Origin: Escherichia coli
GTDB lineage: Bacteria; Pseudomonadota; Gammaproteobacteria; Enterobacterales; Enterobacteriaceae
Direction: 5' to 3' (one strand)
Length of the DNA: 64,000 nt
Assembly: GCF_003790525.1 (NCBI RefSeq)
Contig: NZ_CP033635.1
Made by a program: the position numbers. Position 1 is the stretch's first letter, and each line of letters starts with the position of its first letter. Below are positions 48,401-51,400 of this stretch, piece after piece.

Positions 48401-51400
48401 GCCAGTGATGATGCACAGATACCGAAGATGAGCAGAATGGAAGAGAGTGCTTTGTTCATTTACAGGTCCTCCACAGGGGATAGTTTCATTGAGGAGTTAC
48501 ATCTTAACAACATAAAACAGCATTTCCTGTAACAATCCTCACATAACTTCTTATCCCGTCACTTCCCGTTTCACATGGGCAGCATAGCCTGTTTTTTAAC
48601 CCGTTTTTCAGTCATTTCCATAAACAAATCTTCGCTGACGATAAATCTTTTTTCTGTTTAACGATCGATTTTGTCGATCGATATGATATGTATAATTCAT
48701 TTTACCAATGAGAAATCCATCTTAAAATTGGACAAATTCATATGTCTGAAGGAAACATCAGGAGAGGTGGATTGTGAAAAAGTTACTGGCACTCACTGCG
48801 GTAGCTGCGCTTACCGGCACGTTTTCAACGCTGGCGCTGGCAGATGCGGATAAAACCGGGTTCTATATCACGGGTAAGGCTGGTGCATCTGTTATCACTC
48901 AGGATAATCAGCGTTTTAGTCAGGACTTTGGTGATGTTGTTTATAAGTATAAAGGCGGTGACAAGAGCGATACGGTTTTTGGCGCCGGCCTTGCGGTGGG
49001 ATATGACTTTTATCAGCACTACAATGTACCTGTTCGCACGGAAGTTGAATTCTATGGTCGCGGCTCTGCGAATTCCCGCTATACACTGGATACATGGGAG
49101 TCCCCGTCTGGAGATAATGGTTGGAAGGAAGACACACAAAACAGGCTCAGCGTGAATACCCTGATGGTGAGCACGTATTATGATTTCAGAAACAGCAGTG
49201 CTTTCACTCCGTGGGTATCAGCCGGACTGGGTTATGCGCGGGTACATCATAAGGCAACATACACCGATACCACCTGGCATAAATCAGGTGAAGTAAGTGA
49301 TGCTTCTTCATTACATTACTCGGGATATGATAACAATTTCGCATGGAGCCTTGGTGTTGGCGTGAAATATGATGTCACCCCGGATTTCAGTCTTGACCTT
49401 GCTTATCGCTATCTTGATGCAGGTGATTCAACCCTGACGTATAAAGACGGGCAGGATACATATAAATCCTCTGTTGATGTCAGAAGTAACGAATTTACGT
49501 TAGGCGCTACATACAGCTTCTGAATGTAATATCTGACTACACGTTGTTAAATTCAAAATCGCAGCGTGTAGTCTGATTTGATAGTTTAATACAACAGACA
49601 CGTACCTTCATGGCACTTCCTTAGCCCCCGGTTACGTTCATTTGTACCAGATGTAAGTGGCGTAAAACCATTGTCCAAATAGTGGCTCTAAAAGATTAGA
49701 TACTCATTTAGATATTATATAGCATAAGGTGATATATGGGATTTTGGGATGCTATAATGGGATTCGGTAAGCTTGCTTCTAATGCTGCTGCTGAAACGAT
49801 GAAAAAAGTCAATTTCAATGTGTGGGATAAAATAAAATCATCTCCGGTAGAAAGAATTAACGATTTTTATAACCAAAATAATACATCTGAGTATAATCGG
49901 CCAGCATACAGAGGATTGGCTATTGCTGCTCTATGTTTTAGGGGGGATTGGAGCGGGGAGCGTTTATGGCGTGAAGATCAGGAGGCTGCTAATTGGTTAA
50001 AGAATTTTAGAATAAAAATTTCACTGGATACATGTGATTCTGCAGATGAACTACGTAAAATAATCGATCGTCTTACAGAACTGAATTGATTACTGGAGGT
50101 GAAGTTATTTTTATAGGGATAAGTTGAAAATATTTATATGCCCTGTAAGTGTTATTTATATATCGAGAGCGTGAGCCAATGGTCTTTCTTCGACCACCTA
50201 CTACATTTATCTGTATGAATTGTCAATGGAGTAAAACTATTATTCATGTGAACTGTACAACAGGATTTTATGAATGTCCTGTGTGTGGAGAGAAAGTTAT
50301 TTATAAACGTAAGGCTACGATTACAGAAAATCTGTTTTCCAGAGTAATGCAATTCTTTCTTAAAAATCATAATATTTGATTGATAATAATAATTGTGTCC
50401 CGATGTCTGGCGGAGATAGTTTTTGGAAAGTGATTGTGAAATTTTTAGGTTTTTTGTTGTATGACTGATAATGAAAATATTCTCACACCATCAAAAATCA
50501 TAAAATTTCTGGATTACGCTTATGAAAAATCCATCGATGGTATTGGTATCCCGGGGATAGATACGGCACATAGTCTTGCGGAAAGTTATCTGAAAACGGG
50601 TAGTAGTTTAAAAGAACAGATAAATAGCCTTATTCGATGGCAGAATACCAAGTCTGCCACATCAGGTTTTCTTACTGGTCTTGGAGGAATTATTACATTA
50701 CCAGTAACTATACCGACCAATATTTCAAGTGTCCTTTTCATTCAGGTCAGGATGGTAGCATCTATTGCGATCATGTGTGGTCAGGATATTCGTGATGATA
50801 AAGTCAGAACTATTGTTTATACCTGTCTTGTAGGTAATGCTGCGAAAGATATTTTGAAGGAAGCAGGAATTCAGATAGGACAAAGGTTGACAACAAATGC
50901 AATTAGATGTATTAGCAAAGAAATTATTGTAAAGATAAATAAGGCTGTCGGTTTCAGACTGCTTACAAAAACAGGTGCTACTGGTGTTATTAATATGTCA
51001 AAGCTTGTTCCTGTTGTAGGAGGAATCGTTGGTGGTAGTTTTGATGCGATAACAACCAACATCGTTGGTAATTATGCCAGAGATACATTCCTGAGTTTGA
51101 TTGATAATGATTTATAAAATAAAAGTTTCATAAAAAATAGTATTTTAGGTGTGCTGACGATAGTGGATACTTTAGTATTATTGCTTCAAGTTGCATAATT
51201 TTTAACTAACATTAGGTATGAAATTATCCTGACTGGCGGGTAATACTGCCGCTCAATATGGCAAGGTTGTATTACACTGCAAGGAGAAATTCATCGCATA
51301 TCCTTACCCACAAATTTGGAGGCTATTTTATTTGCCAGTAATAATCATGTTAATCCTGAGAATATAGTTTGATATCATATGGTTAATCATTTATCTTGAT

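What the first reader, a model, noticed from the sequence alone, without database searches (positions are those of the whole stretch)
49736..51117. Integrase-proximal three-gene cassette: unknown protein, Cys4 zinc-ribbon protein and EcsC-like protein
Directly next to the integrase sit three co-directional, AT-rich genes of unknown function, separated by short gaps and closed by a hairpin. Integrase-proximal slots often hold defence or accessory cargo, and this combination is not one I recognise as a described system.
Basis: inference. Interest (0 to 1): 0.6.

Follow-up and report, generated by a model that had tools for sequence, protein, structure and literature searches.

The report
EcsC-like defence-candidate gene with two partners
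Next to an island integrase sit three real, AT-rich genes that travel together in rare E. coli islands: a membrane-type EcsC-like protein already listed as an untested phage-defence candidate, plus two tiny proteins from previously undescribed families; what they do is still unproven.

Summary
Three co-directional genes lie at 49736-51117, with 35.5% GC against 48% for the window. All three are under purifying selection. They face a P4-type integrase 399 bp away. The "closing hairpin" is really the strong terminator at the integrase stop codon, 366 nt downstream.

- **ORF3** (218 aa) is an EcsC-family protein. It matches the PADLOC model PDC-S29 at E=2.4e-86. PDC-S29 is a single-gene phage defence candidate that PADLOC's authors describe as untested.
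- **The EcsC-like family** is widespread, about 55-63% identical across phyla, and usually solitary. None of 80 species loci or 17 viral contigs carries an ORF1 homologue or a zinc-ribbon ORF just upstream, and only 1 of 317 plasmids with an EcsC-like gene has an ORF1 homologue.
- **ORF1** (117 aa) and **ORF2** (66 aa, CxxC...CxxC) belong to tiny families with no match in any library.
- **Within E. coli**, the trio persists as a unit in three diverged variants. These sit in islands with unrelated cargo (QatABCD, type I RM, LeoA) and discordant integrases.
- **Elsewhere**, distant ORF1 relatives again sit beside an EcsC-family gene. In one metagenome locus they sit beside a zinc-ribbon homologue and a GTPase-DUF697 fusion next to BREX.

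Most likely this is a defence-type membrane effector with two accessory proteins, but that is unproven. Interest is moderate.

The parts
49610..49696 (+). Degenerate remnant of the 5' half of an ORF2-type zinc-ribbon gene. It has an in-frame TAG in the window and is an intact 29-codon ORF in E. coli strain 135.
   Evidence: tblastn and DNA alignment
49736..50089 (+). ORF1: 117 aa, soluble, no predicted TM segment, pI 6.3. Founding member of a very small family with an invariant N-terminal M-G-F motif. No match in Pfam, NCBIfam or PADLOC.
50179..50379 (+). ORF2: 66 aa, basic (pI 9.2) zinc-ribbon-like protein, CxxC-(17)-CxxC. Not annotated by PGAP. Homologues are found only in E. coli plus one metagenome locus (L175).
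50461..51117 (+). ORF3: 218 aa EcsC-family protein, equal to PADLOC candidate PDC-S29. All-helical. Has a hydrophobic Gly/Pro-rich helical hairpin (about residues 68-107) and a Gly-rich C-terminal helix (about residues 182-206).
51247..51263 (+). Weak terminator-like hairpin 130 nt after ORF3.
51483..51513 (.). Strong hairpin with a 13-bp perfect stem and T-runs on both strands. Likely a shared, bidirectional terminator of the cassette and the convergent integrase.
51517..52710 (-). P4-type tyrosine integrase (context only). Its phylogeny is discordant with that of the trio.
48774..49523 (+). OmpW/Adr-like outer-membrane beta-barrel gene, ancestrally linked to the trio. Only a 5' remnant survives upstream of ORF1 in the other variants. 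It has its own hairpin at 49531-49577.

Best explanation
This is a mobile three-gene accessory cassette. Its core is a stand-alone EcsC/DUF697-type membrane-associated helical protein (PADLOC candidate PDC-S29).

The most likely role, which is inferred and not shown, is anti-phage or anti-invader protection acting at the inner membrane. ORF3 would insert its hydrophobic helical hairpin into the membrane. On infection it would either perturb the membrane (abortive infection) or block genome entry (exclusion).

In the E. coli lineage it has acquired two small cytoplasmic partners that are kept with it:
- ORF1, a roughly 13.5 kDa soluble protein with no predicted TM segment.
- ORF2, a 7.8 kDa basic zinc-ribbon protein.

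These would act as accessory factors, either as trigger sensor or adaptor, or as a brake or regulator of ORF3.

Shown: gene reality, family assignments, linkage patterns, and a predicted all-helical, partly hydrophobic architecture.

Inferred: defence function, membrane action, and any physical interaction among the three proteins.
For: 1. ORF3 matches PADLOC PDC-S29 at E=2.4e-86 over 205 of 220 profile positions. PDCs were derived from genes embedded in BREX, DISARM and type I RM systems (bioRxiv 10.1101/2024.01.29.577857).

2. EcsC-like genes are reported in putative operons with the jumbo-phage sensor jukA (bioRxiv 10.1101/2022.09.17.508391). One is also a sigma-regulated gene in a type III-E CRISPR locus (PMC10028731).

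3. The family is patchy, mobile and highly conserved:
- 352 matching stretches among genomes of 100,044 species, at 52-63% identity across phyla.
- 317 plasmids.
- 17 IMG/VR viral contigs.
- About 2.2-kb Rop-type plasmids.

4. The trio is kept together in three E. coli variants under purifying selection.
- Homology between variant islands ends just outside the trio.
- Integrase identity is discordant with trio identity: 54% against 80-90% for one pair, and 97% against 43-86% for another.
- So the three genes are exchanged as one unit.

5. Variant islands carry QatA (E=0), a type I RM plus AAA_15 ATPase, LeoA (E=2.5e-209) and PDC-M40B.

6. ORF1's family is tiny, only 16 clusters among 1.84 billion representatives. 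Its distant members lie:
- 34 bp downstream of another EcsC-family gene (L114).
- After JukA-JukB (L108).
- Beside PDC-M09A/B and WYL/BrxR regulators (L111, L116, L177).
- In L175, in a block of ZnR homologue - WYL - GTPase+DUF697 - ORF1 homologue, next to BrxHI.

7. ORF3 has a hydrophobic segment with KD19 = 1.93 at residues 88-106. The model is all-helical, with pLDDT 76.9.
Against: - No experiment exists. PADLOC's PDC systems are explicitly untested.
- In this window the immediate neighbours are envelope genes (dolP, yebF and OMP paralogues), not defence genes.
- The EcsC-like gene is solitary in 80 of 80 species loci and 17 of 17 viral loci. Of 317 plasmids with an EcsC-like gene, only one has an ORF1 homologue. 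ORF1 and ORF2 are therefore not required for its activity.
- ORF1 homologues also occur without any EcsC-like gene (L105-107 small plasmids, L108, L111).
- The DUF697-EcsC relationship in L175 rests on weak scores (Pfam DUF697 at 1.2e-6; EcsC profile at 8 bits).
- The variant-3 ORF2 lacks the fourth Cys, so zinc binding is not strictly conserved.
Confidence: 0.42

Rival explanations
1. The three are independent passengers. ORF3 is a self-sufficient single-gene unit (whatever it does). ORF1 and ORF2 are unrelated small island genes that stay with it in E. coli only through tight physical linkage and recent common descent.
For: - The EcsC-like gene is alone almost everywhere.
- ORF1 homologues occur alone on small plasmids and beside other systems.
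- The intergenic gaps of 81-89 nt allow separate promoters.
- PADLOC models PDC-S29 as a single gene.
Against: - The trio is retained through dS of about 1-2 while the adjacent OMP gene was deleted.
- The whole trio is swapped between islands that have near-identical integrases.
- ORF1-family and EcsC/DUF697-family adjacency recurs in two unrelated lineages, with different gene orders (L114, L175). This is unlikely for such rare families.
Confidence: 0.27
2. It is an envelope or membrane-homeostasis accessory module. The EcsC-like membrane protein and its partners would modulate envelope stress or secretion, in line with the B. subtilis ecs locus and with the envelope genes around it, rather than defending against phage.
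For: - Window neighbours are paralogues of dolP, yebF and an OMP.
- Variant-3 islands place the trio between a sulfatase/PEtN-transferase gene plus an MFS transporter and a MASE4-GGDEF, TPR and AraC group.
- TerB/DjlA-N fusions to EcsC-like domains exist in AFDB.
- Klebsiella plasmid copies face a TerY-C/PP2C/kinase cluster.
- From general knowledge: the ecsAB genes of B. subtilis affect secretion and RasP proteolysis.
Against: - No ecsA/ecsB ABC-transporter genes are nearby.
- The OMP was lost in variants while the trio was kept.
- The distribution is that of mobile cargo (plasmids, viral contigs, islands), with embedding in BREX and RM systems.
- ORF1 relatives associate with Juk, BREX and WYL contexts.
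Confidence: 0.18
3. It is an addiction or toxin-antitoxin-like module that stabilises the island. ORF3 would be a membrane toxin held in check by ORF1 and/or ORF2.
For: - Small genes sit upstream of a hydrophobic protein.
- The location is on mobile islands and small plasmids.
- ORF2 is basic and zinc-ribbon-like, as some antitoxin DNA-binding domains are. Only weak Lar-like and zinc-ribbon profile hits were found.
Against: - ORF3 homologues exist alone in hundreds of genomes and plasmids, so ORF3 is not constitutively toxic.
- No TA family is hit in NCBIfam, Pfam or PADLOC.
- The gene gaps are not the overlapping, tightly coupled arrangement typical of type II TA pairs.
Confidence: 0.08

Closest known systems
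PADLOC phage defence candidate PDC-S29 (and the related PDC-S30)
   Same: ORF3 matches the PDC-S29 profile end to end (E=2.4e-86) and PDC-S30 weakly (1.3e-11). It is a single EcsC-family gene in mobile and defence-island contexts.
   Different: PDC-S29 is defined as a single gene and is untested. Here it is preceded by two conserved small genes that are absent from the catalogue and from nearly all other PDC-S29 loci.
Pfam EcsC family (PF12787), including B. subtilis EcsC of the ecsABC operon, and the related DUF697 (PF05128)
   Same: Pfam hit at E=1.4e-11 over model positions 82-235 of 240. PGAP names homologues 'EcsC family protein'. JGI names some homologues 'DUF697 family'.
   Different: No ecsA/ecsB ABC-transporter genes are nearby. 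The protein is a short, horizontally mobile form (about 210 aa), highly conserved across phyla.
Juk (jumbo-phage killer) systems: JukA sensor with variable partners, including EcsC-like proteins
   Same: EcsC-like proteins are reported as putative jukA operon partners. A distant ORF1 relative lies just downstream of JukA-JukB in L108.
   Different: The window has no JukA or JukB. hhalign finds no EcsC-JukA similarity.
Eleos / bacterial dynamin-like defence proteins (LeoA, LeoBC)
   Different: ORF3 has no GTPase domain. The similarity is limited to a helical bundle and may be generic.

Membership tests
Pfam EcsC (PF12787) | Significant match to the family HMM | tested here: met
   E=1.4e-11, residues 49-210, model positions 82-235 of 240. 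The AFDB50 top hits are all EcsC family.
PADLOC PDC-S29 | Match to the PDC-S29 HMM as a single-gene system | tested here: met
   E=2.4e-86, 286.8 bits, profile positions 10-214 of 220.
PADLOC PDC-S29 | Demonstrated anti-phage activity | not testable with these tools
   The source paper calls the 145 PDC systems untested. No paper found reports a test of an EcsC-like gene.
B. subtilis-type EcsABC transporter locus | Adjacent ecsA (ABC ATPase) and ecsB (permease) genes | tested here: not met
   The neighbours are ORF2, ORF1, an OMP, yebF-like and dolP-like genes, and an integrase.
Juk system | JukA (YaaW/DUF3944) sensor gene in the operon | tested here: not met
   No JukA or JukB in the window by tblastn. 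ORF1-3 have no JukA/B hit in PADLOC. EcsC against JukA by hhalign gives probability 0.25%.
Eleos / dynamin-like defence | Dynamin-type GTPase domain | tested here: not met
Cys4 zinc ribbon (ORF2) | Two CxxC pairs conserved across homologues | tested here: inconclusive
   CMNC...CPVC in variants 1 and 2 and CAYC...CPKC in L175, but CHEC...CPVY in variant 3. Only weak zinc-ribbon Pfam and PHROG hits. Metal binding was not tested.
Type II toxin-antitoxin | Recognisable toxin or antitoxin family, and toxin not viable alone | tested here: not met
   No TA family is hit. ORF3 homologues are solitary in 80 of 80 species loci.

The most novel reading that the evidence does not exclude
ORF1 (the 'MGF' family), the ORF2 zinc ribbon and an EcsC/DUF697-type membrane domain would together form a previously undescribed tripartite defence module. 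It recurs from E. coli islands to a BREX-adjacent metagenome locus, where the membrane domain is fused to a GTPase. In this reading the two small proteins are the infection sensor or switch for a dynamin-stalk-like membrane effector.
Probability: 0.25. Interest if true: 0.7.

Novelty: new variant of a known kind. Interest (0 to 1): 0.5.

Why it matters
EcsC-like proteins turn up in three independent defence settings: genes embedded in BREX and RM systems, jukA operons, and a type III-E CRISPR locus. Yet nobody knows what they do.

This E. coli cassette is a natural, compact and genetically tractable version of such a gene. Its two conserved partner proteins could reveal how the EcsC-like protein is triggered or restrained.

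If the trio is a working unit, it would also assign a first role to two protein families that have no annotation anywhere. One of them, ORF2, is not even called as a gene by the standard annotation pipeline.

Tried and rejected
- **JukA-EcsC homology.** I suspected it from similar Gly/Pro-rich hydrophobic motifs. hhalign gave probability 0.25%, so I dropped it.
- **PDB sequence searches** with the ORF1 and EcsC profiles found nothing meaningful.
- **Foldseek against the PDB** with the first, low-confidence model gave no match with E<=0.001.
- **Rfam scan** of 49400-53000 found nothing. No tRNA is present anywhere in the window.
- **ORF2 as a Lar-like restriction-alleviation protein.** Only weak hits (PHROG 0.0032, Pfam 0.38), which I treat as generic zinc-ribbon noise.
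- **The GTG start at 50149 for ORF2 and an N-terminal extension of ORF3.** Neither is conserved among the variants, so I rejected both.
- **The search for related loci with the ORF1 family alignment** failed because no stretch was conserved enough.
- **P0145**, a 3072-aa repeat protein, matched the ORF1 profile. The match is compositional and spurious.
- **The alpha-amylase NCBIfam hit for ORF1** (E=0.0022, 16.8 bits against a cut-off of 516) I dismissed.
- **A possible zinc-ribbon ORF near the EcsC-like gene of Caballeronia (L079)** is too weak to count.
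Full report
**1. What is in the sequence**

The window region 49736-51117 holds three co-directional + strand ORFs:
- ORF1: 49736-50089, 117 aa.
- ORF2: 66 aa from the conserved ATG at 50179, ending at 50379.
- ORF3: 50461-51117, 218 aa.

The gaps between them are 89 and 81 nt. The block has 35.5% GC. The window as a whole has 48.0% and the adjacent integrase 48.5%.

A P4-type tyrosine integrase lies convergently 399 bp downstream, at 51517-52710 on the minus strand (NCBIfam PRK09692, E=1.3e-80).

The "closing hairpin" needs correcting. Nothing terminator-like abuts the ORF3 stop codon. A weak candidate lies at 51247-51263. The strong one is a 13-bp perfect stem at 51483-51513, which sits directly at the integrase stop codon and has T-runs on both strands. 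It is best read as a shared, bidirectional terminator.

The upstream outer-membrane protein gene (48774-49523) has its own hairpin at 49531-49577.

**2. Are they genes?**

Yes, all three. Within E. coli the cassette exists in at least three diverged variants. Pairwise Nei-Gojobori estimates give dN/dS of 0.16-0.24 for ORF1, 0.30-0.42 for ORF2 and 0.12-0.15 for ORF3, at dS values up to 1.2-2.1.

The ORF2 reading frame survives down to 33-43% amino-acid identity. PGAP nevertheless does not annotate it in any of the complete genomes inspected. The GTG at 50149 and an apparent N-terminal extension of ORF3 are not conserved, so I rejected them.

**3. What the proteins are**

*ORF3* is an EcsC-family protein (Pfam PF12787, E=1.4e-11). 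It matches the PADLOC-DB profile PDC-S29 almost end to end (E=2.4e-86) and PDC-S30 weakly.

According to the paper that introduced them, PDC systems are 145 untested "phage defence candidates". They were derived from genes embedded in BREX, DISARM and type I RM loci (bioRxiv 10.1101/2024.01.29.577857).

Two other papers place EcsC-like genes in defence settings without assigning a function:
- As putative operon partners of the jumbo-phage sensor JukA (bioRxiv 10.1101/2022.09.17.508391).
- As a CASP-sigma-regulated gene in a type III-E CRISPR locus (PMC10028731).

No paper found reports a functional test.

An AlphaFold2 model built on a 49-sequence alignment reached pLDDT 76.9 and pTM 0.71. It is entirely helical.

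A Kyte-Doolittle window peaks at 1.93 for residues 88-106. This lies inside a Gly/Pro-rich hydrophobic helical hairpin, roughly residues 68-107. A second Gly-rich helix follows at roughly residues 182-206.

*ORF1* has no match in Pfam, PADLOC or PHROGs. Its only NCBIfam hit is spurious. A full HMM search of 1.84 billion representative proteins with a family profile returned only 16 clusters. One of these is a compositional artefact. The family is about 110 aa long and hydrophilic (GRAVY -0.57), with no TM-strength hydrophobic window. M1, F3, R40 and D43 are invariant, and G2 nearly so.

*ORF2* is a basic (pI 9.2) 66-aa protein with CMNC-(17)-CPVC. It gives only weak zinc-ribbon and Lar-like profile hits. 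Its only close homologues are in E. coli. In variant 3 the fourth Cys is replaced (CPVY), so a Cys4 site is not strictly conserved.

A degenerate copy of the 5' half of this gene lies just upstream of ORF1, at 49610-49696. It has an in-frame TAG here and is a 29-codon ORF in strain 135. This records an old duplication or insertion event.

**4. Do the three genes belong together?**

The answer differs with scale.

*From the EcsC side, they do not.* The PDC-S29-type gene is widespread. There were 352 confirmed matching stretches among genomes of 100,044 species, at 52-63% identity across Proteobacteria, Firmicutes, Bacteroidota and others. It has no conserved neighbour in 80 species loci. None of those loci has an ORF1 or ORF2 homologue, or any zinc-ribbon ORF just upstream.

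The same holds for 17 viral contigs. Of 317 plasmids carrying an EcsC-like gene, 280 of them Klebsiella, only one E. coli plasmid also carries ORF1. A 63%-identical copy is essentially the only cargo of Rop-type plasmids of about 2.2 kb. ORF3 therefore functions without the other two in most hosts.

*Within E. coli, they do.* Every locus examined that carries this EcsC clade also carries ORF1 and ORF2, in the same order.
- Variant 1 is present in 16-17 of 5,426 complete genomes.
- Variant 3 is present in 8 of 5,426.
- Variant 2 was seen only in draft and metagenome assemblies.

Homology between variant islands starts just upstream of ORF1, or at a short 5' remnant of the OMP gene. It ends about 60 nt after the ORF3 stop codon.

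Integrase and trio phylogenies disagree:
- Window against L084: integrase 54% identical, trio 80-90%.
- L084 against L098: integrase 97% identical, trio 43-86%.

So the trio is exchanged as a block, independently of the integrase.

The cargo around it varies between islands:
- QatABCD directly upstream in L087 (QatA, E=0).
- Type I RM plus an AAA_15 ATPase in L100.
- LeoA (E=2.5e-209) in L101.
- PDC-M40B in L090.
- A ResIII helicase in L084-86.
- sitABCD and envelope genes in variant 1.

*From the ORF1 side, partly.* Distant family members were found in these contexts:
- L114: 34 bp downstream of another EcsC-family gene (Pfam EcsC 5.8e-7; PDC-S30 2e-14).
- L108: just after JukA (4.7e-80) and JukB (9.7e-66).
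- L111: beside PDC-M09A/B and BrxR.
- L116: ahead of WYL, TerB, a PDC-M09A-like gene, a PDC-M40B-like gene and a CxxCxxCC gene.
- L177: beside WYL regulators.
- L105-107: alone on a small Rop/NikA plasmid.

The most telling locus is L175. It has a co-directional block of four genes next to BrxHI (E=2.3e-290):
- A zinc-ribbon protein homologous to ORF2 (E=9.6e-8 with a profile built only from E. coli sequences, in a set of 20,346 ORFs).
- A WYL regulator.
- A GTPase fused to DUF697 (Pfam MMR_HSR1 2.2e-12; DUF697 1.2e-6).
- An ORF1 homologue.

JGI labels some PDC-S29-type proteins "DUF697 family". The EcsC profile weakly aligns to the DUF697 part of the L175 protein (8 bits).

So the three protein types re-assemble in a distant lineage. 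The EcsC-DUF697 link, however, is weak, and this is a single locus.

**5. Most likely mechanism**

I commit to the following reading, with confidence about 0.4.

The cassette is defence-type cargo whose effector is the EcsC-like protein. That protein associates with the inner membrane through its hydrophobic hairpin. On infection it either damages membrane integrity (abortive infection) or blocks genome entry.

ORF1 and ORF2 would be lineage-specific accessory proteins that sense the trigger or restrain the effector.

Only the architecture and the associations are shown. Membrane insertion, the trigger, any protein-protein contacts and the phenotype itself are all inferred.

The rivals are:
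- The three genes are merely linked passengers, and ORF3 acts alone (0.27).
- It is an envelope or membrane-homeostasis module (0.18). The envelope neighbours here, the PEtN-transferase, MFS and GGDEF neighbours of variant 3, the TerB fusions and the TerY-type neighbours on Klebsiella plasmids support this.
- It is an addiction module (0.08). This is disfavoured because ORF3 is viable alone in hundreds of replicons.

**6. Comparison with known systems**

ORF3 is a member of Pfam EcsC and of PADLOC's PDC-S29 candidate by profile match. The following assignments fail:
- It is not part of an ecsABC transporter locus, because there is no ABC gene nearby.
- It is not a Juk system. The window has no JukA or JukB, and hhalign finds no EcsC-JukA similarity.
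- It is not a dynamin-like Eleos protein, because it has no GTPase domain.
- No TA family is hit.

The ORF1 and ORF2 families are not in any library searched.

**7. Verdict**

The core gene is already catalogued, though only as an untested candidate. The three-gene arrangement and its two small families are new, are conserved as a unit in rare E. coli islands, and are echoed in one or two distant loci.

I rate it a new variant of a known (candidate) kind, with moderate interest (0.5). The most novel reading not excluded is a conserved tripartite module of ORF1, zinc ribbon and EcsC/DUF697 membrane effector. I give that a probability of about 0.25, and it would deserve an interest of about 0.7 if true.

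Noticed in passing
window 49610-49696: A degenerate copy of the first ~24-29 codons of the ORF2 zinc-ribbon gene lies just upstream of ORF1. It has an in-frame TAG here and is an intact 29-codon ORF in E. coli strain 135. This implies an old duplication, or insertion of ORF1 into a zinc-ribbon gene.
   Followed up: partly
window 47432-49523: The island carries extra paralogues of the envelope genes dolP (47432-48058) and yebF (48106-48459, minus strand), plus an OmpW/Adr-like beta-barrel OMP (48774-49523). In other variant islands the OMP is reduced to a remnant of about 47 codons upstream of ORF1.
   Followed up: partly
window 51517-52961: The P4-type integrase lies 251 bp from lptG. Neither ARAGORN (whole window) nor Rfam (49400-53000) finds a tRNA gene. 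Related islands with the other integrase type sit by yqgA-speC or yjdC-dsbD. The attachment site here is unidentified.
   Followed up: no
window 50160-50220 and 50340-50400: The two ends of ORF2 are only 80-82% identical to strain 135, while the flanking ORF1 and ORF3 sequence is 97-100% identical. ORF2 is a local divergence hotspot, from either mosaic recombination or relaxed or diversifying selection.
   Followed up: partly
L175 1723-4892 (metagenome contig Ga0182735_1001621): A co-directional block of zinc-ribbon homologue - WYL regulator - GTPase+DUF697 fusion - ORF1 homologue, lying next to a BREX BrxHI helicase and a PDC-M11A-like gene.
   Followed up: partly
L258 (Klebsiella IncFIB plasmid NZ_CP077783.1) 4207-10609; AFDB A0A1G3TQT7, A0A1N7M6U8: On many Klebsiella plasmids the EcsC-like gene follows a DUF2971 gene and faces a TerY-C/PP2C phosphatase/InaA-kinase/VWA cluster. 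Elsewhere, EcsC-like domains are fused to TerB/DjlA-N domains. Together these hint at a link to Ter-type stress systems.
   Followed up: no
L257 (E. coli plasmid CP057032.1) 1-10648: The variant-3 trio, with its flanking PEtN-transferase, MFS, GGDEF, TPR and AraC genes, is also carried on a 62-kb plasmid, next to a group II intron.
   Followed up: no
L079 8705-8908 (Caballeronia sordidicola): A small ORF (MPIPAPPMKLTCRSC...CAAC) resembles the L175 zinc-ribbon protein and lies 1.9 kb downstream of an EcsC-like gene. It is not detected by the E. coli-only profile, so the evidence is weak.
   Followed up: partly
L116 5001-10135; L111 5001-8379: ORF1 homologues lie beside PDC-M09A-like glycine-rich proteins that weakly hit LeoBC, together with WYL/BrxR regulators and TerB. 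PDC-M40B-like and CxxCxxCC genes recur both there and in the E. coli variant-3 island (L090).
   Followed up: partly
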